NCBI GenBank assembly: GCA_965249625.1
Contig: OZ252246.1
Span: forward strand, 1,854,365-1,918,364
Direction of reading: 5' to 3'
Length of the DNA: 64,000 bases
Source of the DNA: Nitrospinales bacterium
GTDB taxonomy: Bacteria > Nitrospinota > Nitrospinia > Nitrospinales > VA-1
The notes beneath the pieces were generated by a model. It was not told where the DNA came from. It worked only from the letters and a program-made list of their open reading frames with translations, and ran no database searches. Within the stretch, counting starts at the first letter, position 1. Each line of letters begins with the position of its first letter. A program made the translations under genes and the position numbers. Below, one piece after another: positions 1 to 57,200 of the stretch.

Positions 1-552
1 AGCCAGTAAACTGAACTCCGGTTGCAGTGACACAATTTTTCCGTATTGAAGACAGCCGTTGATCTGTTGAGCCGAGTAATTGCTGACACCGATATGACGA
101 ATCTTGCCTTTTTCCTGAATCTCCAACAGGGTTTCCATAGTCTCTTTCTGACCCGTTTCCACATCGGGCCAGTGAACCTGATAAAGATCGATCACATCCG
201 TATCCAGACGTTTCAAACTCTGGTCAATTTCTTCCAGAATAGAAGTTCTGCTGGCATCCTTGCGGAGCGAGCTTAAGGATTTCTTATCCCACCGCAATCC
301 ACATTTGGTCGCAAGAATCACTTTATCCCTGAGCGGTTTCAGGGCTTTTCCAATCAACTCCTCAGAATGGCCAAAACCATAAACCGGGGCCGTATCAAAA
401 AAATTAATACCCAGGTCATACGCCTTCCTGATAGAATCCAGCGATTTCCCATCGCCCTCGTTATTCCAGAAGGGTGCTCCACCTATCCCCCACGCACCAA
501 AACCGATCACCGACACTTCAAGATCACTGCTTCCCAGTTTTCTGTATTCCAT
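1..552 (-). CDS. aldo/keto reductase family oxidoreductase (C-terminal part cut by window edge)
   Basis: My own minus-strand translation from ATG at 552..550 gives MEYRKLGSSDLEVSVIGFGAWGIGG...GINFFDTAPVYGFGHSEELIGKAL...DLYQVHWPD...IRHIGVSNY, which are typical AKR N-terminal motifs. The frame stays open to position 1. It is absent from the ORF track because no stop lies inside the window. Confidence 0.85.
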   Translation of the reverse strand, partial: MEYRKLGSSDLEVSVIGFGAWGIGGAPFWNNEGDGKSLDSIRKAYDLGINFFDTAPVYGFGHSEELIGKALKPLRDKVILATKCGLRWDKKSLSSLRKDASRTSILEEIDQSLKRLDTDVIDLYQVHWPDVETGQKETMETLLEIQEKGKIRHIGVSNYSAQQINGCLQYGKIVSLQPEFSLLA

Positions 553-718
553 ATTCTCGTTGAGTTTAAATTTAAGGTTTCAGGTTTTCTCGCAAAAACC
601 ATTTCGCATTATTAAGGTTACTCATTATAATCGTAAGGACACCTCTAAAAATCAGAACCTTTATGCTTTGACAGTTTTTAGAGGCTTTTTTAATTATAGC
701 AGTCCAAACGCTGAAAAC

Positions 719-2443
719 ATGAAATCCCTTGCAAGAGTACTGAGTTATTTAAAACCTTATCAAAAAGGGGTAGCGATGACACTGTTTTTAGCCATCGCCA
801 CCACCCTCCTGGATCTAGTCCCACCCTGGCTGATTAAACTGATTGTCGACAGCCTGGTCGAAGGCGGAGAATCCTTATGGATATACGGACCCATAGCCGG
901 TTTGGCCGGTATTTATCTGACGCGAAACTTCACCAATCACCGGCGCATCATGATCAACAACAAAGTCGAGCAGAGTGTAGTGTTCGATTTAAGGTCAGAC
1001 GTTTATCGTGCGTTGCAGAATTTATCCCTGAACTATTTTGAAAACCGCTCCACCGGCGAGTTGATGTCCCGCGCCAACGATGATGTGACCTATGTCGAGC
1101 GAATTTTTATTGATGGCGTGGAGCAGGTTGTGACCGCGATCCTGACCCTGATCGGGATTTCCATTATACTTTTTTATATGCATTGGAAACTGGCCTTGGT
1201 GGCCCTGCTTCCCATTCCTTTCCTGGCTTATGGCGCATGGATCTACACCGCCAAGGCCCACGACCAGTATCATGTTGTGCGCAAGCGGGCCGCGAAAATG
1301 AATGCTAAGTTGCAGGACTCCATTTCAGGAATCCGCGAAACACTTTCTTTTAACCGCCAGCTTCATGAAGTCAATCAATTTGAAAAACGCAGTCGGGATT
1401 ACTGCGATGGGACTTTGGAAGTCATGCGGTTGTGGGCCTTCTACTCCCCGACCATGATGTTTTTTGGGTCTCTCGGCACAGTTCTGATCCTCCTGTATGG
1501 AGTGGGGCTGGTACAGGCCGGGGATATCACCGTCGGTTCCCTGATCGCTTTCGTAGGCTACTTGGCATTATTTTATACGCCGATCAACCAATTGCATTCG
1601 GTCAATCACATGCTTCAGCACGCACTGGCTTCCGGCGAACGGTTGTTTGAGATCATCGACACGGTGCCCGAGATCCAAGAGATGCCACATGCGATTCTCC
1701 CCTCTACCAATGTCTTGGGCACGATTCAATTTAACCGGGTGGACTTTTCATACATCTCGGGCAAACCCGTCCTTCAAGAAGTTGACTTCACCATTGCCGC
1801 CGGAGAAAAGATAGCTCTGGTCGGTCATACCGGCAGCGGCAAATCCACCATGGTTAAACTGCTCATGCGGTTTTATGATGTCCAGTCAGGAGCCATTCTC
1901 ATTGATGGTCACCGAATAAAAGACCTGAAGCTTTCTTATCTCCGCGAACAGATCGGGCTGGTCGCGCAAGATCCGTTCCTGTTTAATGGCACAGTGGCAG
2001 AAAACATCCTTTACGGGAACATTGAAGCCGACCGGGATCAGATCATTTCAGCCGCTGTCTCAGCACACGCCGACCCCTTTATAAAAAATCTGCCGGAGGG
2101 ATACGACACCATGGTCGGAGAACGGGGAGTCAAACTTTCTGGAGGGGAAAAACACCGCATCGCCATCGCCCGGACTTTTCTGAAAAATCCGCCGATCCTG
2201 GTGCTGGACGAAGCCACCTCATCGGTGGACACTGAAACCGAGAGCCATATCAAACAAGCTCTGGACACGTTGATGGCAGGGCGTACCACTCTGATTGTTG
2301 CGCATCGCCTGTCAACTTTGAAAGGGGCAGACCGTGTTCTGGTCATGAAACAAGGAGAACTGGTTGAAACAGGAGTGCACGATACCTTGATCACCACTGA
2401 CTCAGAATACGCACAACTGTTTTGCCAACAGGTCCACCTCTAA
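719..2443 (+). CDS. ABC exporter, fused permease/ATPase (MsbA-like family)
   Basis: ORF track 560..2443. I moved the start to ATG 719 (MKSLARVLSYLKPYQKG) because the upstream residues look non-coding. A multi-TM exporter domain is followed by Walker A GHTGSGKST, signature LSGGEKHR, Walker B ILVLDEATS and H-loop AHRL. Confidence 0.9.
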   Translation: MKSLARVLSYLKPYQKGVAMTLFLAIATTLLDLVPPWLIKLIVDSLVEGGESLWIYGPIAGLAGIYLTRNFTNHRRIMINNKVEQSVVFDLRSDVYRALQNLSLNYFENRSTGELMSRANDDVTYVERIFIDGVEQVVTAILTLIGISIILFYMHWKLALVALLPIPFLAYGAWIYTAKAHDQYHVVRKRAAKMNAKLQDSISGIRETLSFNRQLHEVNQFEKRSRDYCDGTLEVMRLWAFYSPTMMFFGSLGTVLILLYGVGLVQAGDITVGSLIAFVGYLALFYTPINQLHSVNHMLQHALASGERLFEIIDTVPEIQEMPHAILPSTNVLGTIQFNRVDFSYISGKPVLQEVDFTIAAGEKIALVGHTGSGKSTMVKLLMRFYDVQSGAILIDGHRIKDLKLSYLREQIGLVAQDPFLFNGTVAENILYGNIEADRDQIISAAVSAHADPFIKNLPEGYDTMVGERGVKLSGGEKHRIAIARTFLKNPPILVLDEATSSVDTETESHIKQALDTLMAGRTTLIVAHRLSTLKGADRVLVMKQGELVETGVHDTLITTDSEYAQLFCQQVHL

Positions 2444-2484
2444 GCGGAGAACCTCCGCTGGTAACTAGCAATAGCTTTTCAAGG
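2444..2484. repeat. stop-codon-adjacent hairpin repeat, copy 1
   Basis: GCGGAG-AAC-CTCCGC forms a perfect 6-bp stem starting 1 nt after the TAA stop. About 41 nt (gcggagaacctccgctggtaactagcaatagcttttcaagg) matches the sequence starting 1 nt after the TGA stop at 8173 at roughly 80 percent, aligned by eye. Confidence 0.6.
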
Positions 2485-2541
2485 CTGGCAACAATTCTCC
2501 TTGGCTTGAAGAGTTCCTGATCATTGGGTAGCGTCACGTGT

Positions 2542-2572
2542 GGTGACCCTTCATTAACCCTCATGCCCCGAA
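2542..2572 (-). repeat. REP-like hairpin module M1, left part (interrupted by IS110-family element)
   Basis: gtgacccttcattaaccctcatgccccgaag is the same module as 10349..10387 and 28460..28497. It breaks off in the hairpin loop (ccccgaag) exactly where the IS sequence begins. Confidence 0.7.
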
Positions 2573-3646
2573 GCAACTGTGTTAAATGTCAAGTGCTGGC
2601 AATGAGATTTTCATTCCAGAGTGTTTTTGTTTTGATCATAGTATTGATGATCGTTAATAATTTTCTCATGCATGCAGTAATGGCGACTTTAAAGGGTTTT
2701 CCCTTTTCGATGAGGCGTGTGTAAAAGGTACGAATCAGAGGATTATGTTGCATAGCAGTGACGGCGGTCATGTATAAAGCGGCACGCACATTGGCGCGTC
2801 CGCCCCGGATACACCGGCGGCCCCGGAACTTTCTGCTGTCACGATTGAGTGGAGCAAGACCGATCAGTGCGGCAACTTGCCGCCGGTTTAAGGTTCCTAA
2901 CTCTGGAACACCGGCTAACAGGCGACAATACGGGCCCTGCGCCTGGCAAGCTTTGAATGATCAGGTCGCGCTCATGCCAGACAGAACTGTTCCGGATAGC
3001 TATGGAAAGGTCACCATCGATTTTACGCAAGCGTTTTTTTAAGAGATTCGGTATGCTCCTTAATGTCCTTACGTATCCATTTTGGAGCTTGTTTTAAACG
3101 GGTCTTTTCCCTGGTTAGCATCTCGATCAACTGGCGTCTGCGAGTGACCAGAGCTGAGAGCTTCAGGGATTCTGCATCTTTGATTTTTCTGGCCTCAGGG
3201 CGTATGGCCTTGGCAAAATGGGCCAGCACAAGAGAATCAATGACATCCGTTTTTGCCAGTTTTCCGATGGCTTTGGCAAAATCACGAACTTGCCGTGGGT
3301 TGACCATGGCTACTGGCAGTCGACCCGCAGCCAAGGCCGAGGCCAGCGGGAGCTCCAAACCGCCTGTGGCTTCCAGAACAATTAATGGAGGGTTTAAGGC
3401 GGATAAACTCTCGACCAAACCAGCAATCCCTTCCTCATTGTCAGCGGTTTGCCAGGTTTCTTGAGTCATGCTGTCAGCGGCATCCAGATGGTGTTTGGAA
3501 ATATCGATGCCAATAAAATGCGCTTTCTGATTCATAATTTGGTCTCCCAGCCTTGTCGATGCGGGCTCAGTGGCCCAGGCAACTGTTCGGGTTAATCAAA
3601 ACAGGACACAACGACCTGCGCTCCAGGACGGGTTTAATAACCCAAG
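2573..3646 (-). mobile_element. IS110-family insertion sequence (decayed), inserted in an M1 hairpin
   Basis: It contains the IS110-type transposase reading frames. The boundaries are inferred from the flanks. Joining left flank ...catgccccgaag to right flank ggggtaaacgatc recreates an intact M1 hairpin (compare catgcccctaaaggggtaaaacgctc at 28481..). The triplet aag occurs at both junctions (2570..2572 and 3644..3646). Confidence 0.7.
2589..3535 (-). pseudogene. IS110-family (DEDD/RuvC-like) transposase, at least two frameshifts
   Basis: Three minus-strand ORF pieces make up the gene. Piece 3023..3535 is the N-terminal domain (FIGIDISKHHLD, VLEATGGLE, KTDVID). Piece 2839..3030 reads IRNSSVWHERDLIIQSLPGAGPV. 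Piece 2589..2789 is the C-terminal domain (RAALYMTAVTAMQHNPLIRTFYTRLIEKGKPFKVAITACMRKLL). My own translation of a third frame across about 2790..2925 gives VPELGTLNRRQVAALIGLAPLNRDSRKFRGRRCIRGG and bridges the pieces. One frame change sits at an A7/T7 run near 3033..3039. Confidence 0.8.
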
Positions 3647-3728
3647 GGGTAAACGATCTATTGTGCCCTGAATCGAATCCTGTGAGCTTGTGGAAAACAC
3701 AAAACCGGCTTCCCACAGGACTCACAGG
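3647..3728. repeat. right half of interrupted M1 hairpin plus an adjacent inverted repeat
   Basis: ggggtaaacgatc completes the M1 stem. CCTGTGAG (3679..3686) pairs with CTCACAGG (3721..3728), and an inner cttgtgg/ccacagg pairing extends the stem. Confidence 0.5.
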
Positions 3729-3789
3729 TTCTTTGGACGGACTACTGAAAGTTGAAACCTTTCAAGAAGAATACACCCAGAAACAGAAA

Positions 3790-4026
3790 ATGATCACAGT
3801 CCGAGTTGAGGGCACAGGAGGAGGCATTCCCCATGAAGTTTTTGAAAATATTTTTAATCCCTTTTTCACCACTAAACATACGGGAACCGGGCTCGGACTT
3901 TCCATCTGTCGGAAAATTATAGAGAATCATGGCGGAACAATTCGGGTGGAAAACCAATTAGGTAAAGGGGTTATCGTCTATCTCCATTTACCGTTGCAAA
4001 ACAGCCCCGATTATTATAAAAACTAG
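3790..4026 (+). pseudogene. histidine kinase remnant (C-terminal HATPase_c tail only)
   Basis: Only the last part of ORF 3553..4026 is kinase-like: ITVRVEGTGGGIPHEVFENIFNPFFTTKHTGTGLGLSICRKIIENHGGTIRVENQLGKG (G1/F/G2 boxes). No H-box, N-box or sensor region is present. The upstream part of the ORF runs over IS and repeat sequence. Confidence 0.7.
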
Positions 4027-27954: not shown

Positions 27955-28000
27955 GCCCACTAGGCGTGGAGACCCTTGCATAAGTTGATAAAACAGAAAA

Positions 28001-28500
28001 GCGAGATTCTTCACTACGTTCAGAATGACAATGCGACCTCGTTCAGCATGACAATACTGGGCCATTTTGTCATCCTCGAGGAACCGAAGGCGACGAAGGA
28101 TCTCGCCTTGCACTAACTTGGGGATTACCCCTTCGGGGCACGAAAGCTTGAGTGAAACATCACGTCTTCACGGAGCCTGTGCTAAGCGAAGCCGAAGCAT
28201 TCAGAATAACAATGCGACCTCGTTCAGCATGACAATACTGGGCCATTTTGTCATCCTTGAGGAGCCGAAGGCGACGAAGGATCTCGCCTTGCACTAACTT
28301 GGGGATTACCCCTTCGGGGCACGAAAGCTTGAGTGAAACATCACGTCTTCACGGAGCCTGTGCTGAGCGAAGCCGAAGCATTCAGAATGACAATGCGATC
28401 TCGTTCAGCATGACAATACTGGGCCATTTTGTCATTCTGAGGAACAAGGTGACGAAGACGTGATATTTTTCCTTAAACTTCATGCCCCTAAAGGGGTAAA
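28001..28500. repeat. mosaic repeat array A
   Basis: The array contains gtcat(t/c)ct(g/c)a-type modules in both orientations, two M1 modules at 28128..28163 and 28309..28344 (+), and one M1 at 28460..28497 (-). It lies between the convergent genes ending at 27954 and 28545. Confidence 0.85.
28019..28448. repeat. 181-bp tandem direct repeat, about 2.4 copies
   Basis: Units start near 28019, 28200 and 28381. The track ORFs 28067..28297 and 28248..28463 are offset by exactly 181 nt and give near-identical peptides (SSRNRRRRRISPCTNLGITPSGHESLSETSRLHGACA...). Confidence 0.85.
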
Positions 28501-47033: not shown

Positions 47034-48236
47034 ACCCGTACCGGGCATGAAGTTTAATGAAGAGGATATCACAGGCTCCTCAAGGATGACAAATTGGCGT
47101 CTCTTGTCATGCTGAACGACTGCTTTGTCATAGGGTTAGTGCAAGGCGAGATCCTTCGTCGCCTTAGGCTCCTCAAGGATGACAAATTGGCGTCTCTTGT
47201 CATGTTGAACAAAAGGATGACAAATTGGCCTTGTATTGTCATTCTGAACGCAGTGAAGAATCTCGCTTTTCTTGTCATTCGTGGGAGAGATCCTTCGTCT
47301 CCCTAAAGGGACGTGCCAGGCCTTAGGCTCCTCGAGGATGACAAACTGGCGTTTCTTGTCATTCTGAATACTTCGGCTTCGCTCAGCACAGGCTCCTCAA
47401 GGATGACAAAATAGCCTTGCATTGTCATTCTGAACAACTGCATTGTCATTCTGAACGAAGTGAAGAATCTCGCTTTTCCTGTCATTCGTAGGAGAGATCC
47501 TTCGTCTCCCTAAAGGGACGTGCCAGGCCTTAGGCTCCTCGAGGATGACAAAATGGCGTCTCTTGTCATTCTGAATGCTTCGGCTTCGCTCAGCACAGGC
47601 TCCTCAAGGATGACAAAATAGCCTTGCATTGTCATTCTGAACAACTGCATTGTCATTCTGAACGAAGTGAAGAATCTCGCTTTTCCTGTCATTCGTAGGA
47701 GAGATCCTTCGTCTCCCTAAAGGGACGTGCCAGGCCTTAGGTTCCTCGAGGATGACAAATCTGAATGCTTCGGCTTCGCTCAGCACAGGCTCCGCATTGT
47801 CATTCTGAACGAAGTGAAGAATCTCGCTTTTCTGTCATTCAGGGAGAGATTCTTCGTCGCCTTGTTCCTCAGAATGACAAACCACGTTGTTCCTCAGAAT
47901 GACAAAATGGGGTAACCTCGCTTTTCTTGTCATTCTGAATGCTTCGGCTTCGCTCAGCACAGGCTCCGCTTTGTCATTCTGAACGAAGTGAAGAATCTCG
48001 CTTTTCTTGTCATTCAGGGAGAGATTCTTCGTCACCTTGTTCCTCAGAATGACAAAATGGCCTTGCTTTGTCATGTTGAACAAAAGGATGACAAACTGGC
48101 CTTGTATTGTCATTCTGAACGAAGTGAAGAATCTCGCTTTTCTGTCATTCAGAGAGAGATTCTTCGTCACCTTGTTCCTCAGAATGACAAACCACGTTGT
48201 TCCTCAGAATGACAAACTGGGGTAATCTCGCTTCTC
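47034..48236. repeat. mosaic repeat array B (1.2 kb)
   Basis: It starts with an M1 module (acccgtaccgggcatgaagtttaatgaagaggatatcac). A dense patchwork follows, made of gtcattctgaacgaagtgaagaatctcgc, gagat(c/t)cttcgtc..., ggctcctcaaggatgacaaa and ttgttcctcagaatgacaaa modules. Many occur as mutually inverted pairs. The array fills the whole space between the giant gene's stop (48237) and the PBP operon start (47007). Confidence 0.9.
47281..47840. repeat. 207-bp tandem direct repeat inside array B (2 full copies plus 1 copy with deletions)
   Basis: Units are 47281..47487, 47488..47694 and 47695..47840 (shortened). Track ORFs 47303..47485 and 47510..47692 are offset by exactly 207 nt and are nearly identical. 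Confidence 0.85.
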
Positions 48237-51200
48237 TTAAAACCGGATATCGCCTTTCAGCATGATGGCGTGGTCAGTAACATTGCTGTTACTCTCTCTG
48301 CGCTCACCGGTCAGGTTCAGGTCAAACAACGCATCAAGTTCCCATCTCATCCCCAGGCGGTAACTTCTGGAAGAGTCGCCGAGAGTCATCTCACTGTAGG
48401 GAGTCAGCAGTCCCCGTCCGTCGGGAGCGGTCAGTCCGTAACCCAGGCGGGCATCCAATCGCGCGCCGTAACCCTGGTCACCGCTGACCTCATCGCCCAG
48501 GCCCTGCTGCCATACTTTTTGCGTGCCACTGCCTGTATCGCCGTAACCGGGACTCAGGCTGAACGACAGTCCCCGTCCGTTGCTGCTCTGCTCCAGAAGA
48601 ATCAGGCCGGAAACACCCCATTCCTCATAGTTGTCCCGTCCTACCAGGGTGCGGGCCCTGCCTTCCAAGGTCAGGCCGGCGGTCGGATCGGTGTAGCGGA
48701 AACCGGCGCCCAGCTCGGCCCCGAAACCGGTCTCGCCGTCACCGCCGTCATACCGCACTCCAGCCTCCAGGCTCGGTTCCACATAAGCCCCGTCAGCCAG
48801 CGTATGCTTATACGCCCCTTCCAGGATCATGCGCAACAGGCTGGACTCCACTTCCAGTCCCGCTATATCATCACTGCCCTCCACTTCCATCTCAGTCAGC
48901 AAAGCTGAACTCTTGAGCTGGAACAGGACCGGGCCTGCCCGCGACAACTGGGCATTGCTACCCACAGCCACGTTCCACGCTTCAACATCGCTCGATGCCG
49001 GGTCCTGCTCATCAGTGATCTCCAGGTCACCCCAGCCGTAGCCGGCAGTGGCCCACAGGTCCAGCTGTCCGGCCAGCGCCTCCCAGCTCACATAAGGGTG
49101 GACGCTGGTGAGGTCCAGCTCGTAATCGCCGCTGCTATCGTCGCCGTCCTGATAGTCCAGATCGCCATGGCTCCAGGATACTGTCAGACCCGTCAGCAGG
49201 TCGTCACGCGGTCGGCCATCCAGTCCCAGATGGGCGCTGAACAGGCTGCCGTCCCAGTCGATTGTCCCGCCGGAACCTTCGAGACTGCGGTAGCCGCCCC
49301 CGCCCCACAAGGTCAGGGAGGACAGTATCCCGCTGTCCGGTCCGCCCGCATCACTCAACGGCAGTACGAAGTCGGAGTTACCCAGCACATCCTTAAGACT
49401 CAGCGTACCGTCAGCAATGGCCTGGCCGTGGGCAGATGCCGCCCCGGCCAATGTGGACTGCCCGGCAATAGTGACGGACCGGGCATTGCCGCCGTTCCCA
49501 GCCTGACTGATACGTTGCGTTATCGCGCTCACCGTCTGGTCCGCTATGGCACGCGCCATTTCCGGCAGGATCACGGCATTGAGGTCGGTAAACCCCTCGT
49601 CCGTCACATTGGTAACCCTCACCGTTACCGCAACTGCGTCGCTGGTCCCGCTCGCGTCATCGGTGGCGGTGACGGTGATTTCATAATCGTTGTCGGTGTT
49701 GGCATCGGTCGGCATCTCAAAGTCCGGCGGGGTGCTGAAGGTCAAGACGCCAGCGTTAGTGATGGAGAAGTCATCCGCATCGGCCCCGCCGAGGGCGTAA
49801 CTGGTAATGGTCCTGCTATCAGTCGTGGTCGCGCTGAAGGAGTGCACTTCTGCCGTATCATTCTCGGCAAATACTATCGGTGTTGTTGGTGGTGGAGTCA
49901 CAACCGGTTTGGTCGGGGTCGCGGCCTGCACGGCGGCGGTCGGGTTGCTGGTGACTGCTTTACCGCTACCCTCACCATCGGTGTAAGTGGCGATGACTCG
50001 AATGGTCCTGTCTTCATCGGTTGCCACCGGCGTGTAGGTTGCACCGGTGCCCGCGCCGCTGATGTCGGTGTAGGTACCGTCTCCGCCTGCACTTCGCCAT
50101 TGATAGGTGATGGTGCCAACTTCCACACCATCCGGCGAATCCGCGTCGGTTACCGTGCCGGCGGTCAATTCCACGCTAACCCGCGCGGTGCCGGTGATGT
50201 CGCTGATGGCACCCGTCTCATCCACATTGGTAACCGTCACCGTTACCGCCAGCGGTGCGCTTGCCAGGTTGCTTGGGACGCCATTGGTTTCCGTGGCGGT
50301 AATGGTGACCTCGTAGGTCTCGGTGTGTGCATCGTCTTCAAAGTCCGGCGGATTGTTGAAAGTCAATTCGCCCTTATTAGGAGCAGCGCTATTAGGAGCA
50401 ATCGAGAACAATGCCGCATCCGTGCCGCCAGTGATTGACCAGATGATGGCGTTGCCCTCGGCATCGGTCGCGGTGTAGGTCTCCACCGGGGTGTCGGCGT
50501 TCTCGGCATAATTCGGTGCTGCATTGCCACTGACTACCGGCGCGGTGTTAGCCGCTGCCGCCGTCGCCATGCCGTTCACGCTCGCCGCGCTCTCGGGGCC
50601 TGGGTTCGGGGTGGTGGCAGCATCCATCACGCTGTTCGCGGCAAGGATCAGGCTGAAGGTTGCCGCGGTCGGGGTGAAGTTGATGGTGTAGGCGGCACCG
50701 CTACCGCTCACGCTATTCACCGTGACAAAGGTGGAAGTGGAGAAAGCATCCACCACCAAACCGGTTACCGCCTCGTTGAAGGTGATGCCGTGATCCTGCG
50801 GCGTGCCAATCACACCTGCGGTAATGGTGCCGAGGGTCACCGTCGGCGCGGTGGTGTCAGGTACATCCGTTACTGTGTATGTTCTAGTTACCGAGGTAGC
50901 CGCATTGCCTGATGCATCTACAGAATCATAAGTGATTATGTAATCGTCTAGTGTGCCAACCTCAACAGTTCCCGTTGTAGTCACTGCAGAACCGTCATCA
51001 GTTGTGACTCCATCAAGTAAGTTAGGTGGTGCTGAACCAATTTGTAGTGTAACGGTAGAAGGAACAACTGTGATGACTGGCGCTGTGGTATCAAGCGTAA
51101 TGACTAATTCTGATGACGCACCAGATTCATTACCTGCTGCATCCGTAGCCGTTGCGGTGAAGGTGTTGGCGCCTTCAGATAGTGCAACTGCTGCAAATGA

Positions 51201-54200
51201 GAAATCCCCTGAGCCATCAGCAGTTGTTGTACCCGCTGAGGTTGTTCCATTGAATAGTGCTACAGTCGCTGCGGCCTCAGCCGTGCCCTCAATTGTGATT
51301 GGCGATGAACCAACAGTTGCCGGTGCTGTGGTAATTGCAGGAACTGCCGGTGCTGTGGTGTCCTCCACAGTAATTACAATTGATTGTTGGGCTGGTGTGT
51401 TACCTGCCGCATCATCCGGCGCATTATATAATACGGTGTAAACTCCTACAGCACTGGTGTCAGGTGTGTCGCCTGTAATTGCTACTGCTCCAGAGTAAGC
51501 CGGGTCATTATCAGTTACCGTAGCGCCAAGTTCAGTGTAAGTGTTGGTTGCAGTTAACTCTATTGTTTCACTAGATCCTGCTACTGCGATAACTGGTGGG
51601 GTAGTATCTGTAACGGTAACTGTTCTGGTTACTGTTTCCGCAGAATTTCCAGACGCATCATCCACATTAAAGGTTACAGTGTATGTATTAGCCACACTGG
51701 TATTAACCGTATCGCCACCAACAACTACACCACTTGCGATATCTCCATCAGCATCATCAGTGGCAGAATAGGTAAATGGCGTGTATTCCGCTCCAAGTTC
51801 AACAGAGAATGAATCTTCAACAACTGCGATTACTGGTAGGGTAACATCATCAGCCGTAGTAGTTGTAGTTACAGGCAGATCAGCAGAGTTGTCACTCGTC
51901 CCGGCAGCGTTAGTTGATGTGGCGTGATATGTATACGCTGTTCCGGCAGTCAATCCAGTATCAGTGTAGGATGTTTCAGTGGTAGTAGTTGTTATGGAAG
52001 CGCCATCTCTAAACAACTCGTATCCTGTGGCGCCATTCACTGCAGTCCATTGAATCACAATGCTGGTCGGAGTGACTGCTCCTTGTACAAGTACAGGTGC
52101 GGCAGGTGCTTCAATTGGTGTAGTCAAGGTAGTGGCAGCAACCTCGTTGGAATTAGCAGTTGTTCTGCTCCCCACTGTCGCGGTAATGACATACCTATAC
52201 TCGGTTGCAGCAGTCAAGCCAGTATTAGTGGCAGTCAATGCAGTGGTTGTTGGCACTGTTACATCAGCACCGCCCGCAACAATTCTGGTCAGGGTGTAAC
52301 TATCGGCATTATCCACTGCACCCCATGAGAGCGTTATGCTTGTATCAGTAATTGTTCCTGCGACAAGTACAGGTGGGGTAGTTACAACCAACACAGCGGA
52401 TGGGTTACTTTGCTCGGAAGCATCGTTAAGTGCTATGACGTGATAAGTGTAAGTTGTTCCAGGAGTCACGTCCGTATCAGTGTATGCTGGTAAATCACCA
52501 CCCAGAGTAGTGTGAAAAACCCTTGCTATGCAGCCGGTTTTATCAGACCTAACCAAGCAATAGGCCAAGGTGCCATCCACTGCAGTCCATGTAATCGTAA
52601 CACTTGTCGAAGTGACTGCTCCGAGAATGAGTGTGGGTGCGGCGGGTGCAGTTGGCGCAGGCAAGGTAGTTGCAGTAACCTCGTTGGAATTAGCACTTAT
52701 TCGGCTCCCAACTGTCGCGGTAATGACATACTTATACTCGGTTGCAGGTTCCAAGTTCTCATCAGTGGCAGTCAATGCAGTGGTGGTTACTGTTACATTA
52801 GCACCGCCTGCAACCATTCTGGTCAGGGTGTAACTATCGGCATTATCCACTGCAGTCCATTCAAGCACTACGCTTGATGCCGTAGTTGTTCCTGCAGAAA
52901 GTATCGGTGCGGCGGGTGGTTCAGTTGGCGCAGGTCCAGTCGTTATAGGTGCAGAATCTATAACTGCGTCAAGGCCAAGGAAAATACTAACCTCGCCAGT
53001 ATAATCATAGCCCACTGTTTCTGTGTGAATGTATGGGACGGCTGCATCATTAATGCTAAAGCCAGTGGTAGAACCAGGATCAAATTGAATTTCAAAATCA
53101 CCGGTGTGTGACGACGTGAAGGTTATAACTACTTTATCTCCGTCAGTCGCATGGGGTTCATCGTTGAGAGTGTACACGGCAGGTGAAGTTGGCGCAGCAT
53201 TAGTCCTTGCCTCAACCTCGTTAGAATCTGCACTTGTCCCAACAGAATTTGTTGCGGTAACGACATACTTGTACGGTGTCTCAGGAGTCAGGCCAGCATC
53301 AGTGGCAGTCAATACATTGCCTGTTGCCACTTCAATATCATTAATGCCATCAACAATTCGGGTCAGGGTATAACTGTCGGCATTATCCACTGCACCCCAT
53401 GAGAGCGTTATCGTTGTCGGAGTAACTTCTCCGAGAACAAGTGCGGGAGTAGCCGGTGCAGCGGTCGGCGTGGCGGTGGCTTCGTTTGACGCTTCGCCCC
53501 CGCCCGCCGAGTTCACCGCGCGCACTTGGAAGAAGTATGCGGTGTCGTTGGTCAAGCCGGTCACGGTGTATTCGGTCGCGGTGGCACTGTTTGGAATTGC
53601 TGTCCACGGATTGGTATCGTCATAAGTTCCCGCTGTTGTGCTTTGGCGAACCTCATAGCCGGTGATTGCCGCGCCGCCGGTTGCGCTCGGTGCCGTCCAG
53701 GTCAGCGTGACCGTGGTATCGCCCGCATCCGCCGTCAAACCGGTCGGCGCGGCGGGTGCTGTTGTTGTGTCAGCGGCGGTCGTTCCCGTGTTGGTCACAT
53801 AAGCGCCTGCCACTTCGGCGGTGGCGCCGCTGCCGGCTTTGGCGCGCACGCGCACAGTGTAGCCGGTGTCTGCCGTCAAGCCGGTGATGGCGGCGGTCTC
53901 GGCAGTCACCGCGACATTCGCAGCCGTGTAGGTGCTGTCGTCCGCGCCAGTCACTTTATATTCCACATCAAAGCCGGTGGTCGGGTCTTTGTCGGTGTCG
54001 GATCCTTGCGTCCAGGACACCGCGAAGGCGCTCTGGGCGGGCGAGCCCGCGTTGACGGTGACGCTGGCAATGGCGCGCGGTTGCGCCACATTGGGGATGA
54101 TGATGTCCACCATGTCGGTAACGGGCGAGTTGCCGCCGCCAGACAGGGTCACGCTCAACTCAAAAGTCAAGGTGGTGTCGGCGGTTACATAAGGCGCGGT

Positions 54201-57200
54201 GAAACTCGCATCCTCCATGTCCGAGCCGGTGATGGCCAGCGGGGTGGACGGCAGTGAGCCATTGGTCCCGGTGTGCGTCCATAAAATGGTCGGGTCGGTG
54301 CCAGGATTGGTGATGGTGCCATCCAGATTCACAGTCGTGTTTTCCAGAACGCCAGGTTGATCCGCGCCGGCATTCACCGTCAGGGCGGTATCCACGGTGG
54401 CGGTCGGCGTGGCGGTGGCTTCGCCTGACGCTTCGCCCGCGCCCACCGAGTTCACCGCGCGCACTTGGAAGAAGTATGCGGTGTCGTTGGTCAAGCCGGT
54501 CACGGTGTATTGGGTCGCGGTGGCGCTGTTTGGAATTGCCATCCAATCGACGACGGCGGCGGAGCCGGTGGTGTCATAGTCGCCCGTGGCGTCGCTTTGG
54601 CGATACTCATAGCCGGTGATGTCCGCGCCGCCGGTTGCGCTCGGTGCCGTCCAGGCCAGCGTGACCGTGGCATCGCCCGGCGTCGCCGTCAAACCGGTCG
54701 GCGCGGCGGATACGGTAGGCGGCGTGACCGTCACGGTATCGGTTGCCGCGCTGGTGGCAGTTTTGTTGCTACCCTCTCCATCGGTGTAAGTGGCAACGAC
54801 TCGAATGGTCCTGCCGACATCATCGGCATCCGGCGTGTAGGTTGAAGTGGTGCCCGCGCCGCTGATGGGGGTGTAGGCGCCGTCTCCGCCTGCGCTTTGC
54901 CAGGTATAACCATCACCCCTAACCGCGTCATCCGGGTCGGTTACGCTGCCGGCGGTCAATTCCTCGCCTACCCGCGCGCTGCCGCTGATGTCGCTGATGC
55001 TTCCCGGCTCATCCACATTGGTAACCCTCACCGTTACCGTAACTGCGTCGCTGGTCTCGGGCTCGCTGTCGGTGGCGGTGATGGTGATTTCATAATCGTT
55101 GTCGCCATCGCCATCGGTCGCTGACTCAAAGTTCGGCGGTGTCTTGAAGGTCAAGACGCCGACGTTAGTGATGGAGAAGTCACCCGCTCCGGTTCCGCCG
55201 AGGGCGTAACTGGCAATCGTCCTGCCGCTAGTCGCGGTCGCGGTGAAGGTGTGCACTTCTCCCCCGCCATTTTCGGCAAATTCTATCGGCTCTGTTGGCG
55301 CCACCACAGTCGGTTTGGTCGGGGTCGGCTCGCTCACGGTGACGGTGCGGGTCAGCGTGTTGGAGACATTGCCGGCGAGGTCGGTGGCGATGTAGGTAAT
55401 GGTGTAGTCGCCGGCGGTGTTGGTGTCCACTGCGTTCACTGTCATAGCGCCAGGCCCGGCAATAGTGCTCACCAGAGTCTCCCCACTCCCCACTCCAATC
55501 ACACCCCTATCACTGTAAGCGTCGCCGTGGGCAACGGTAAAGGATGAAGCGCCATTCAGTCTGATGACCGGCGCCGACACATCAATTCGAATCGCACTGT
55601 CGGTAGCGGGTTGGGCAAGGGTGCCGGCGGCGGCATCAGCGGCGGTCATTTCGGCAATGGCATACCTTGCCAACTCACCGTCGCGTGCCTGAACCTGCGC
55701 CGCGACCACCACATAGGTCGCGGTGTAATCATTGTCACTGCCTTTTGTCGCCGTGACAGTTTGCCCGGCGATGGTCACGCTTGGGTCGTCTGCCAATGCC
55801 TGATTGACCGTGAAGGCAAGGGTCAGGGTGTCGCCGTTTATGGCGTAATCACCGGGGTTATCGCTAACGAGCGTGGGTTCCCCTCCTGCGTTAAAGGCAA
55901 GGGCTACGGCGGCCACCGGTGTTGCAGTGGTAGTTGCAGTAAACTCGGCGGAAGGAGTACTTGTCCCAACAGAATTTGTTGCGGTAATGACATATTTGTA
56001 CGGTGTCTCAGCAGTCAAGCCAGTATCAGTGGCAGTCAATACATTGCCTGTTGCCACTACTACATTATCATCGCCATCAACAATTCGGGTCAGGGTATAA
56101 CTGTTGGCACCATCCACCGCACCCCATGTAATCTCTATGCTGGTATCAGTGACTTCTCCGAAAACAAGTGTGGGAGTAGCCGGTGCAGTTGGGGTCACGC
56201 CCGCGGCACGCACGGGGGTGGTCTTGTCGCTCCTGGCATTTTGGGTGCGGCCTTCCTCGGCATAGGTGACCTCGACTCTAATGGTCTTGCCGCTATCGGC
56301 TGGCTTCAGCATGTAGGTATCGGATGGGCCACTGGCGATGTCGGTGGCGGTACTGCCTAATCCCGTTGGCTCGCTTTCCCAACGATAATTGGTGCCGGTA
56401 ACATCGCCATCCATGTTGTCCTGGGTGACGAAATCCGGGTCGGTCGCGCTGGCGGTCAATACCTGCCCGACCTGAACGTCGCCGGCGATGGTTGCCGTGC
56501 CGTCTTCATCCACATTGGTAACCGTTACCGTTACCGCAACTGCGTCGCTTGCCTCGACCGGCGCGCCGTTATCGGTGGCGGTAATGGTGATCTCATAAAC
56601 ATTATCGCCGGCGACGACAGTGGAATCGTCGGGGTCAGCGACATCGGTCGGCACTTCAAAGTTCGGCGAAGCCCTGAAAGTCAATGCGCCATCCGCATCA
56701 ATCGCAAACAAACCCGCATCCGCGCCACCGACTGACCAGGTGATGGTGTCGCTCTCGGCATCGGTCGCGGCGTAGGTATGCACCGCCGCAACATTCTCGT
56801 CAACCGTTATCGCATCATCGCCATTGGTTCTGGTAATCACCGGCGCGGTGTTGGTCACGGTCGGGGCGGTCACGGTGATGACTACCGTGTCGGTGCCGCT
56901 TGCCGGGGGCGTGCCATCATCGGTGACGGTCAGTTCAAAGGTATAAGCCCCAGCCGTGGCCGGCGCGATGAAGGTCGCGGTCGGGGTGGCGGTATCCGCA
57001 TTAGTCACGGCGATTACCGCTGTCGGCGCAGGCGCGCTGTCATCGGTCATGGTATGCACCCAAGCGTAAGTCAGCATATTGTCATTGGAATCGATGGTAG
57101 CAGAGCCGTCCAGCGTCACTTCGGCACCGGCAACTGCATTAGCATCGGCTCCGGCATCGGCAGACGGCGCATAGTTTGCCGTGCCCTCTACACTCGCCGC

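What the first reader, a model, noticed from the sequence alone, without database searches (positions are those of the whole stretch)
2542..3660. IS110-family element inserted in the loop of an M1 hairpin; the empty site can be reconstructed
**Seen in the sequence.** The left flank ends ...cattaaccctcatgccccgaag (2572) and the right flank resumes ggggtaaacgatc (3647). Joined, they give catgccccgaaggggtaaacg, which closely matches the intact copy catgcccctaaaggggtaaaacg at 28481... The triplet aag is present at both junctions. The element (about 1,074 bp) has no obvious terminal inverted repeats, as expected for IS110.

**Established knowledge.** IS110/IS1111-family elements often target REP or hairpin sequences. 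Members have been reported to use a non-coding guide (bridge/seek) RNA encoded in a non-coding end.

**Inference.** The 112 nt between the transposase start (3535) and the right junction (3646) might carry part of such an RNA, with loops complementary to the M1 target. The transposase carries at least two frameshifts, so the copy is probably inactive.
Basis: partly seen in the sequence, partly recalled or inferred. Interest (0 to 1): 0.55.

Follow-up and report, generated by a model that had tools for sequence, protein, structure and literature searches.

The report
Dead IS110 element with bridge RNA

Summary
Window 2572-3729 (minus strand) is a decayed IS110-group insertion sequence.

- **Intact relatives.** At least ten distinct intact copies lie in a Nitrospinales genome (OZ253496). 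Each is 1,198 bp: a 230-nt left end, a 316-aa DEDD transposase and a 17-nt right end.
- **Window copy.** It matches element positions 37-1198 at 89.5% identity. It has two frameshifts (+1 A near 3040, -5 nt near 2924). It has lost the first 36 nt of its left end.
- **Left junction.** The junction at 2573/2574 in M1 is real.
- **Right junction.** The proposed junction at 3646 is not real. GGGGTAAACGATC lies inside the element and is conserved in every copy. It is the left target guide of a bridge RNA (window 3546-3668), and that guide has the same sequence as the target's left half.
- **True right edge.** The edge at 3729/3730 is a rearrangement breakpoint fused to the 3' third of a histidine-kinase gene.
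- **Bridge RNA support.** The two-loop RNA rests on 63 relatives, with 18 of 25 pairs compensatory. Guide-to-flank covariation was never reached in 2,000 permutations.

It is a new member of a known kind and of low interest.

The parts
2536..2571 (-). Remnant of the M1 repeat. In element orientation it is the right half of the target: TCGGGGCATGAGGGTTAATGAAGGGTCACCACACGT.
   Evidence: The same motif, TCGGGGCATGAAnnnnAATGAAGAGGnCATCAC, follows the right end in most copies in the related genome. Intact M1-like copies lie at window 10371 and 28481.
2572..3729 (-). Decayed IS110-group insertion sequence. It corresponds to positions 37-1198 of the 1,198-bp intact element.
   Evidence: blastn against the intact copy L001 gives 3729-2572, 89.5% identity and 6 gap positions. 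It is the only copy in the window by tblastn and blastn.
2572..2573 (-). CT core at the right-end junction.
   Evidence: CT is shared by the flank and the element at both junctions of every intact copy. Coordinates verified.
2574..2580 (-). Left donor half-site ACAGTTG, the last bases of the right end. It is matched by the left donor guide.
   Evidence: The 7-mer is found exactly in the donor-binding loop in 43 of 47 relatives. Of 13 variant ends, 9 are mirrored exactly in the guide.
2587..2592 (-). -35 hexamer TTGACA of the circle-junction promoter. It overlaps the stop codon.
   Evidence: In intact copies the joined right and left ends read TTGACA-17 nt-TATGTT. TTGAC[A/T] at the same spacing occurs in 36 of 50 relatives. 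The -10 half lay in the 36 nt now missing from the window copy.
2589..3535 (-). Transposase pseudogene with a DEDD domain plus a Transposase_20-type C-terminal domain. It carries two frameshifts: +1 A near 3040 and -5 nt near 2924.
   Evidence: Intact relatives encode one 316-aa ORF. Homologous to the IS621 (8wt6) and ISCro4 (9t56) transposases over nearly the full length.
3546..3591 (-). [quoted passage not shown] Stem CCC/GGG; left donor guide loop 3577-3588 (GAACAGTTGCCT); hairpin 3563-3576; right donor guide loop 3549-3562 (GCATCGACAAGGCT).
   Evidence: Alignment A2 with RNAalifold and pair counts. Coordinates. Match of guide to element ends.
3604..3668 (-). [quoted passage not shown] It has a 13-bp outer stem (3655-3668 with 3604-3616). 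The hairpin is 3631-3642 and the right target guide loop is 3617-3630 (CGTCCTGGAGCGCA).
   Evidence: Ten of 13 outer-stem pairs show compensatory changes. The guides match the flanks in relatives. Coordinates.
3679..3728 (-). Long 5' leader hairpin of the left end (50 nt, -27.4 kcal/mol).
   Evidence: Folds. Copies within OZ253496 and the relative L013 keep it through paired changes (GAGC/GCTC to GGAC/GTCC). A terminator-like 5' stem-loop is described for the IS621 leader (bioRxiv 10.64898/2026.03.19.712850).
3729..3730 (.). Rearrangement breakpoint. Element position 37 is fused to the interior of a histidine-kinase gene. The first 36 nt of the left end and the other M1 half are missing.
   Evidence: Element homology ends at 3729. 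Homology to the full-length kinase gene of L091 starts near 3731. There is at most 1 nt of microhomology and no CT at the joint (read directly).
3730..4026 (+). 3' remnant of a sensor histidine-kinase gene. HATPase_c positions 35-110 only are present. The listed ORF 3553-4026 reads through the bridge-RNA region.
   Evidence: Pfam. L091 encodes the missing N-terminal 410 or more residues, including the H-box and N-box.

Best explanation
**What it is.** Window 2572-3729 is the fossil of an IS110-group (IS621-like) insertion sequence that moved by bridge-RNA-guided recombination.

**How an active copy works.**
- The excised circle joins the right and left ends and creates a sigma-70-type promoter, TTGACA-17-TATGTT.
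- That promoter transcribes the 230-nt left end.
- The transcript folds into a leader hairpin plus two internal-loop modules.
- The target-binding loop carries UUUACCC-CU. This has the same sequence as the left half of the target plus the core, so it pairs with the bottom strand.
- The same loop carries GUCCCGA-AG, which is complementary to CT-TCGGGGC on the top strand.
- The donor-binding loop carries ACAGUUG and ...CAAG, which match the element's own right and left ends.
- The DEDD/serine recombinase uses this RNA to insert the circle at the CT of TACCC-CT-TCGGGGCATG, the loop of the M1 repeat hairpin.

**History of the window copy.**
- It inserted into an M1 copy downstream of an ABC-transporter gene. 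That junction survives at 2573/2574.
- It later lost its first 36 nt, the other M1 half and an unknown stretch of chromosome. This illegitimate rearrangement fused it to the 3' third of a histidine-kinase gene.
- It also picked up two frameshifts.
- It therefore cannot make transposase, cannot rebuild its promoter, and lacks its right-donor half-site.

**Shown versus inferred.** Shown here: the boundaries, the target consensus, the RNA structure covariation, the guide-flank covariation and the lesions. Inferred from the IS621 literature: transcription, RNA-protein assembly and the recombination chemistry.
For: **Family and copies**
- DEDD_Tnp_IS110 scores E 5.7e-24.
- NF033542 'IS110 family RNA-guided transposase' scores 226 bits for the intact protein and 196 bits for the frame-corrected window protein, against a cut-off of 140.
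- The protein is homologous to the solved IS621 and ISCro4 transposases.
- At least ten distinct intact copies (12 fetched loci, some overlapping) lie on one 2.68-Mb Nitrospinales contig.

**Boundaries**
- Copies diverge upstream of ..TACCC-CT|TGTATGTTG and downstream of ACAGTTG-CT|TCGGGGCA.
- The intact element is 1,198 bp. The window copy equals positions 37-1198.

**RNA structure**
- In 63 distinct relatives from many phyla, 97.9% of cells are paired.
- 18 of 25 pairs have compensatory changes.
- No shuffle in 500 reaches the observed values.
- Slid controls pair at 38-44%.

**Guides**
- Across 47 distinct relatives, the right target flank matches the right guide at 4.68 of 6 non-core positions. 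Permuted pairs give 1.73.
- The left flank matches at 4.96 of 7, against 3.47 for permuted pairs.
- Neither observed value was reached in 2,000 permutations.
- The right-end 7-mer is exact in the donor loop in 43 of 47 relatives, and variants co-vary.

**Promoter.** The junction promoter is conserved in 36 of 50 relatives.

**Lesions.** Indels are listed. In two relatives the ABC-transporter block is followed by accA-lpxD, not the kinase.

**Mechanism.** It matches PMC11208160. [quoted passage not shown] The core is included in each pairing, and the bridge RNA lies in the left end for the IS110 group.
Against: - No expression or activity data exist for this element. The RNA, the promoter and the recombination are inferred by homology.
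- The window's right target guide differs from the intact consensus at two positions (GUCCUGGAG versus GUCCCGAAG). It would pair with the flank only through three G-U/G-T wobbles.
- The right donor guide matches the left end only discontinuously.
- I could not scan the window's own genome for further copies. 'Always in M1' is therefore shown only for a related genome (about 90% identical element).
- No Rfam family reaches its gathering score.
- I could not determine the size or nature (deletion or inversion) of the rearrangement at 3729/3730.
Confidence: 0.9

Rival explanations
1. One reading: a complete element of about 1,074 bp lies between 2573 and 3646. Both halves of one M1 hairpin flank it, so joining the flanks restores the empty site.
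For: The joined sequence resembles the intact M1 at 28481, and AAG occurs at both proposed junctions.
Against: The sequence from 3646 to about 3729 is 93-95% identical to the interior of the left end of the intact copies, which lie in different genomic contexts. In those copies the real left flank lies 230 nt upstream of the ATG. The 'flank' also sits in a conserved, covarying RNA stem-loop module.
Confidence: 0.02
2. The conserved left end works as DNA rather than RNA, for example as sub-terminal recombinase-binding sites. Its resemblance to the target would then reflect DNA-level site mimicry.
For: No transcript data exist for this element. Sequence conservation of the CCCGAACAGTTGC and GCAAGG blocks is high enough to fit protein-binding sites as well.
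Against: Ten of 13 pairs of the outer stem and all 3 pairs of the inner hairpin change on both sides while staying paired, as expected for a folded single strand. One guide matches the top strand and the other the bottom strand, as in the experimentally established IS621 bridge RNA (PMC11208160, PMC11208158). The transposase is homologous to IS621.
Confidence: 0.03
3. The truncation at 3729/3730, and possibly the +1 A frameshift, are assembly or sequencing artefacts. The junction would be a mis-join inside a repeated element and the frameshift a homopolymer error, and the real copy would be intact.
For: Insertion sequences are classic mis-assembly points. One frameshift lies in an A7 run. The source appears to be one very long contig: the kinase fragment's record lists a 2.86-Mb contig, which suggests long-read data.
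Against: The joint lies at a unique internal position of both partners, element position 37 and mid-kinase. It does not lie at a repeat edge. The second lesion is a 5-nt deletion in non-repetitive sequence. The copy is 10% diverged from its relatives, so collapse of identical repeats is unlikely.
Confidence: 0.05

Closest known systems
IS621 (E. coli) and the IS110 group of bridge-RNA-guided recombinases (Durrant et al. 2024, PMC11208160; Hiraizumi et al. 2024, PMC11208158)
   Same: It shares the DEDD plus Ser-domain recombinase, homologous over nearly the full length. The left end is long and the right end short. The CT core is the same. The left-end RNA has a 5' target-binding loop and a 3' donor-binding loop, each with a central hairpin. 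The left guides match the top strand and the right guides are complementary to it. The right donor guide pairs discontinuously. A promoter is rebuilt across the circle junction.
   Different: The protein is only distantly related (phmmer E about 1e-30). The target is the Nitrospinales M1 repeat. The leader carries a 50-nt hairpin. The right target guide is longer than IS621's 4 nt: 7 nt plus core, counted on the sequence. Nothing here has been tested experimentally.
ISPpu10 and other REP-targeting IS110 elements (Tobes & Pareja 2006, cited in PMC11208160; bioRxiv 10.64898/2026.03.19.712850)
   Same: It inserts site-specifically into a short, multi-copy, hairpin-forming intergenic repeat.
   Different: In ISPpu10 the required target hairpin lies 5' of the crossover. 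Here the CT crossover lies at the stem-loop border of the hairpin itself (CCCC-TTCG-GGGG). This element keeps a 5' leader stem-loop that ISPpu10 is reported to lack. Whether the DNA hairpin matters here was not tested.
Rfam RF02234 sX15 (Xanthomonadaceae sRNA)
   Same: It is the only Rfam model that hits the region. It hits the same place in the window and in four relatives, full model length, with the same two-module layout.
   Different: The hits are on the strand opposite the transposase and below the gathering score (30-41.5 bits against 55). sX15 was described as one of a complementary pair (sX15/asX7) with 10 copies in Stenotrophomonas (PMC3300014). It probably models the antisense strand of another IS110 left end. 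This locus is not a member by Rfam's threshold.

Membership tests
IS110 family (IS110 group) insertion sequence | N-terminal DEDD RuvC-like transposase domain (PF01548) | tested here: met
   Window 3023-3535 scores E 5.7e-24 over profile positions 1-148 of 155. The motif residues D (GIDISK), E (LEATGG) and D (KTDVID) can be read directly in the translation.
IS110 family (IS110 group) insertion sequence | C-terminal Transposase_20-type domain (PF02371) with the conserved serine | tested here: met
   The two C-terminal fragments alone give no Pfam hit. The frame-corrected protein matches NF033542 end to end at 196 bits against a cut-off of 140. All close homologues carry PF02371. NRDS is present, and S235 is invariant in alignment A1.
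IS110 family (IS110 group) insertion sequence | No terminal inverted repeats; a short core sequence is shared by target and element at both junctions | tested here: met
   A CT core lies at both junctions of the intact copies. In the window only the right-end core (2572-2573) survives.
IS110 family (IS110 group) insertion sequence | The left non-coding end is much longer than the right end, as in the IS110 group rather than IS1111 | tested here: met
   230 nt against 17 nt in the intact element.
Bridge-RNA-guided recombination system | Structured RNA in the non-coding end with two internal-loop modules, supported by covariation | tested here: met
   25 consensus pairs; 18 have compensatory changes; 97.9% of cells are paired; no shuffle in 500 reaches the observed values; slid controls pair at 38-44%.
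Bridge-RNA-guided recombination system | Target-binding loop: the left guide equals the top strand of the left target plus core, and the right guide is complementary to the core plus right target | tested here: met
   The guide UUUACCCCU is identical to the left flank TTTACCCCT in L001 (9 of 9). The reverse complement of the right guide matches CTTCGGGG at 7 of 8 positions. The family-wide permutation test was never reached in 2,000 trials for either side.
Bridge-RNA-guided recombination system | Donor-binding loop matches the element's own ends | tested here: met
   The right-end 7-mer is exact in the loop in 43 of 47 relatives, and 9 of 13 variant ends co-vary. CAAG in the right donor guide pairs with CT+TG of the left end. 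The rest of that pairing is discontinuous (read directly).
Bridge-RNA-guided recombination system | Promoter reconstituted across the right-end/left-end junction of the circle | tested here: met
   At sequence level only: TTGACA-17-TATGTT, with TTGAC[A/T] at the same spacing in 36 of 50 relatives. The window copy retains only the -35. Transcription was not testable.
Bridge-RNA-guided recombination system | RNA binds the recombinase and directs recombination | not testable with these tools
   This needs biochemistry or a plasmid recombination assay.
Rfam RF02234 sX15 | Score at or above the family's gathering threshold (55 bits) | tested here: not met
   29.8 bits in the window and 34.7-41.5 bits in relatives, all on the antisense strand.
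   Three copies occur in the 64-kb window. The same motif flanks the element copies in the related genome. The copy at 2536-2573 is absent from the orthologous position in OZ253496. No genome-wide census was possible.

The most novel reading that the evidence does not exclude
The dead copy may still matter. Its bridge-RNA scaffold is fully intact. Every stem still pairs, and the inner hairpin changed from GGGC/GCCC to GGGU/ACCC in a compensatory way. The non-coding ends are better conserved (93-100%) than the coding sequence (88.9%). If it is transcribed by read-through, it could supply a slightly re-targeted guide in trans to recombinase made by other copies. It would then act as an orphan bridge RNA and seed rearrangements such as the one at its own left edge.
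Probability: 0.05. Interest if true: 0.45.

Novelty: new member of a known kind. Interest (0 to 1): 0.22.

Why it matters
**For annotation.**
- In IS110 elements the left target guide copies the target's left half. An element can therefore appear to end about 80-120 nt too early, and a false 'empty site' can be rebuilt.
- Gene callers here also produce a spurious 155-157-aa 'kinase' ORF that reads through the bridge-RNA region.

**For biology.**
- The result adds an unnamed Nitrospinales member to the bridge-recombinase family, with a natural multi-copy hairpin target.
- It also gives a 63-sequence, multi-phylum alignment in which all four guide-DNA relationships can be read off directly.

Nothing here challenges the published mechanism.

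Tried and rejected
1. **Is GTATTCTTCTTG at 3767-3778 a diverged but complete left-end terminus?** No. The close relative L091 shows that 3731-3779 is kinase coding sequence.

2. **Was the breakpoint at 3729/3730 made by the bridge recombinase?** Probably not. There is no CT at the joint, and the adjoining kinase sequence matches the left target guide at only 1 of 7 positions (read directly).

3. **Exact-protein look-ups for the window's own genome.** The response regulator and the kinase fragment P0121 are both 'not on record'. Other copies in the same genome could not be examined.

4. **Genome-collection scan.** It returned relatives but not the window's genome.

5. **Metagenome scan for the window-specific right-guide variant ACCCGTCCTGGAGCGCAG.** It gave 32 hits, and none lies in an IS110 context. 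The variant looks private to this dead copy, or is unsampled.

6. **Rfam.** No bridge-RNA family reached threshold. Only sub-threshold antisense sX15 hits appeared.

7. **Synteny.** The ABC-transporter neighbours in two relatives are accA-lpxD, not the kinase operon. A simple local deletion of 'M1 half plus kinase 5' part' is therefore not sufficient. The size and type of the rearrangement remain unknown.

8. **Not done.** I did not build a covariance model, because the alignment and pair counts already answered the question.

Full report
**1. What the sequence shows**

The minus strand of 2589-3535 encodes an IS110-type transposase in three frames.
- The N-terminal 170 aa match Pfam DEDD_Tnp_IS110 at E 5.7e-24.
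- The frame-corrected 315-aa protein matches NCBIfam NF033542 'IS110 family RNA-guided transposase' at 196 bits, against a cut-off of 140.
CATGCCCCGAAG ends at 2573 and GGGGTAAA starts at 3646.

**2. Intact relatives define the element**

A protein search found 316-aa homologues at about 90% identity, all on one 2.68-Mb contig. That contig is OZ253496, a Nitrospinales MAG. I fetched twelve loci, some overlapping, which give at least ten distinct copies.

Aligning their flanks gives clean boundaries.
- On the left the copies diverge upstream of ...TACCC-CT|TGTATGTTGTTCATAAGGGG.
- On the right they diverge after ...ACACAGTTG-CT|TCGGGGCATGAA.

The element is 1,198 bp counting one CT core. The left end is 230 nt and the right end is 17 nt after the stop codon.

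The reconstructed target is TACCC-CT-TCGGGGCATGAAnnnnAATGAAGAGGnCATCAC. The crossover CT spans the border between the CCCC stem and the TTCG loop.

So the idea 'IS110 in the loop of the M1 hairpin' holds for this element family.

**3. The right boundary is wrong, and why it looked right**

All copies stay near-identical through and beyond the sequence equivalent to window 3646-3729. The window copy aligns to element positions 37-1198, which is window 3729-2572, at 89.5% identity.

GGGGTAAACGATC is therefore internal. On the element's strand it reads GAUCG-UUUACCCCUU-GGG. It sits in the 5' side of an internal loop (window 3643-3654).

[quoted passage not shown] It therefore has the same sequence as the top strand of the flank. 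Here UUUACCCCU equals the left flank TTTACCCCT of copy L001 at 9 of 9 positions.

The second AAG (3643-3645) is the complement of the guide's CUU.

**4. The bridge RNA**

I aligned 63 distinct left-end segments: the window, the Nitrospinales copies and relatives from Nitrospirota, Chloroflexota, Gemmatimonadota, Acidobacteriota and other phyla. RNAalifold gives two modules.

| Module | Window coordinates | Content |
|---|---|---|
| 5' module | 3604-3668 | 13-bp outer stem around an internal loop with a central hairpin |
| 3' module | 3546-3591 | CCC/GGG stem, loop, GGGC/GCCC hairpin |

Pair counts:
- 97.9% of cells are paired.
- 18 of 25 pairs have changes on both sides.
- No shuffle in 500 reaches the observed values.
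- Slid controls pair at 38-44%.

In the window copy every stem still pairs. Its inner hairpin differs from the Nitrospinales consensus by a compensatory change, GGGC/GCCC to GGGU/ACCC.

**5. Guides track their DNA partners**

I located the left-end start and the right-end terminus in each relative.

| Relationship | Observed | Permuted pairs | Permutations reaching observed |
|---|---|---|---|
| Right flank versus right target guide, 6 non-core positions | 4.68 | 1.73 | 0 of 2,000 |
| Left flank versus left target guide, 7 non-core positions | 4.96 | 3.47 | 0 of 2,000 |

These figures are for 47 distinct elements.
- The conserved AG at the 3' end of the right guide and the CU at the 3' end of the left guide pair with the CT core.
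- The right-end 7-mer ACAGTTG is present exactly in the donor loop in 43 of 47 elements.
- Nine of 13 variant ends (ACGGTTG, ACAGTCG, ACAGCTG) are mirrored in the guide.
- The right donor guide ...GCAUC-nn-GCAAG pairs with CT-TG and then, discontinuously, with TAT/ATG of the left end. The same pattern is described for IS621.

All four relationships that define a bridge RNA are therefore present.

**6. Promoter**

Joining the right and left ends of the intact element gives TTGACA-17 nt-TATGTT. TTGAC[A/T] at that spacing, with TAT[C/G]TT, recurs in 36 of 50 relatives. This matches the published circle-junction promoter. It is sequence-level evidence only.

**7. State of the window copy**

Relative to the intact element it carries several lesions.
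- +1 A in an A-run (A7 versus A6, about 3040).
- A 5-nt deletion (about 2924).
- Loss of element positions 1-36. These held the -10 box and the right-donor half-site.

At 3729/3730 it abuts kinase coding sequence. A close relative, L091 (89% identity), carries the full-length sensor kinase, and its homology to the window begins near 3731. Only HATPase_c positions 35-110 survive in the window.

To the left, the ABC-transporter block (window 2-2519) is followed by accA-lpxD in two relatives, not by the kinase operon. The element therefore sits on a synteny breakpoint.

The joint shows at most 1 nt of microhomology and no CT. I read it as illegitimate recombination rather than a guide-directed event.

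Conservation differs by region.

| Region | Identity to the intact element |
|---|---|
| Non-coding ends | 93-100% |
| Coding sequence | 88.9% |

Coding substitutions fall mostly at third codon positions (25, against 11 and 8). Most of the 10% divergence therefore accrued while the lineage was functional, and the lesions are comparatively recent.

**8. Comparison with known systems**

The protein is homologous over nearly its full length to the solved IS621 and ISCro4 transposases. The architecture matches the IS110 group as described in PMC11208160 in the following respects:
- the bridge RNA lies in the left end;
- the order is target loop, then donor loop;
- the core is CT;
- the promoter is rebuilt across the circle junction.

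REP-type hairpin targets are well known for this family (ISPpu10). The 50-nt leader hairpin (3679-3728) has a counterpart in the IS621 leader stem-loop, reported as terminator-like.

Rfam has no model that reaches threshold. RF02234 sX15 hits the antisense strand of the same region in the window and four relatives at 30-41.5 bits, against 55 needed.

**9. Verdict**

This is an ordinary, decayed IS110-group element and a new, unnamed member of a known kind.
- The right boundary, the length and the empty-site reconstruction were wrong, for an instructive reason.

Interest is low.

Noticed in passing
window 3526-3682 (+); L083 1317-1474, L013 1349-1503, L001 2354-2510, L069 192-333 (all antisense to the transposase): Rfam RF02234 (Xanthomonadaceae sRNA sX15) repeatedly matches the strand opposite the bridge RNA, full model length, at 30-41.5 bits (gathering score 55). 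sX15 was described as one of a complementary pair (sX15/asX7) with 10 homologues in Stenotrophomonas maltophilia (PMC3300014). The Rfam family probably models the antisense strand of an IS110 left end.
   Followed up: partly
L010 about 2106-2270 (OZ253496 about 2,144,600): One copy has, instead of the M1 left half, a fragment of another copy's left end (positions 1 to about 165, ending GTTGTGTC-CT). This fragment abuts the start of a complete element, and an M1 left half lies further upstream. It may be a tandem partial duplication or an off-target ('half-match'-like) event into a resident copy's own target-loop stem.
   Followed up: partly
L006/L011, L008, L012 (OZ253496): At least three copies have near-identical flanks on both sides. 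They lie between an rve (IS3-type orfB) gene and an HTH_Tnp_1 (orfA) gene. Either an IS3-family element carries an M1-like site that was hit, or the IS3::IS110 composite has itself multiplied.
   Followed up: no
window 3553-4026 (+): The ORF listed here, also called as a 155-aa 'HATPase' protein in public data (P0121), starts inside the bridge-RNA region of the element. Only about the last 80 residues are kinase. This is an annotation artefact created by the fusion.
   Followed up: yes
L093 3115-4094 (a 2.43-Mb Nitrospinaceae contig) versus window 3883 onward: In another related genome the same kinase gene is also reduced to a 78-aa HATPase stub. The cut is at a different point, with about 0.9 kb of unrelated, gene-free sequence upstream. 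This kinase locus has been disrupted independently more than once.
   Followed up: partly
window 2520-2573 versus L094 7801 onward: The M1 copy downstream of the ABC-transporter gene is absent from the orthologous position in OZ253496, where homology stops at window 2519. M1 repeats are themselves variable between close genomes.
   Followed up: no
window 27990-28460 and 47070-48150: Two arrays of about 40-60-nt repeats (GTTCAGAATGACAA..., GGAGCCTGTGCTGAGCGAAGCCGAAGC...) lie in inverted orientation about 19 kb apart. The intact M1 at 28481 sits at the edge of the first array. A similar repeat appears next to the ABC-transporter gene in L095.
   Followed up: no
window about 49600-63740: A very large region of diverged direct repeats (units of 120-300 nt, 60-97% identity) looks like a giant repetitive coding region on the minus strand.
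   Followed up: no
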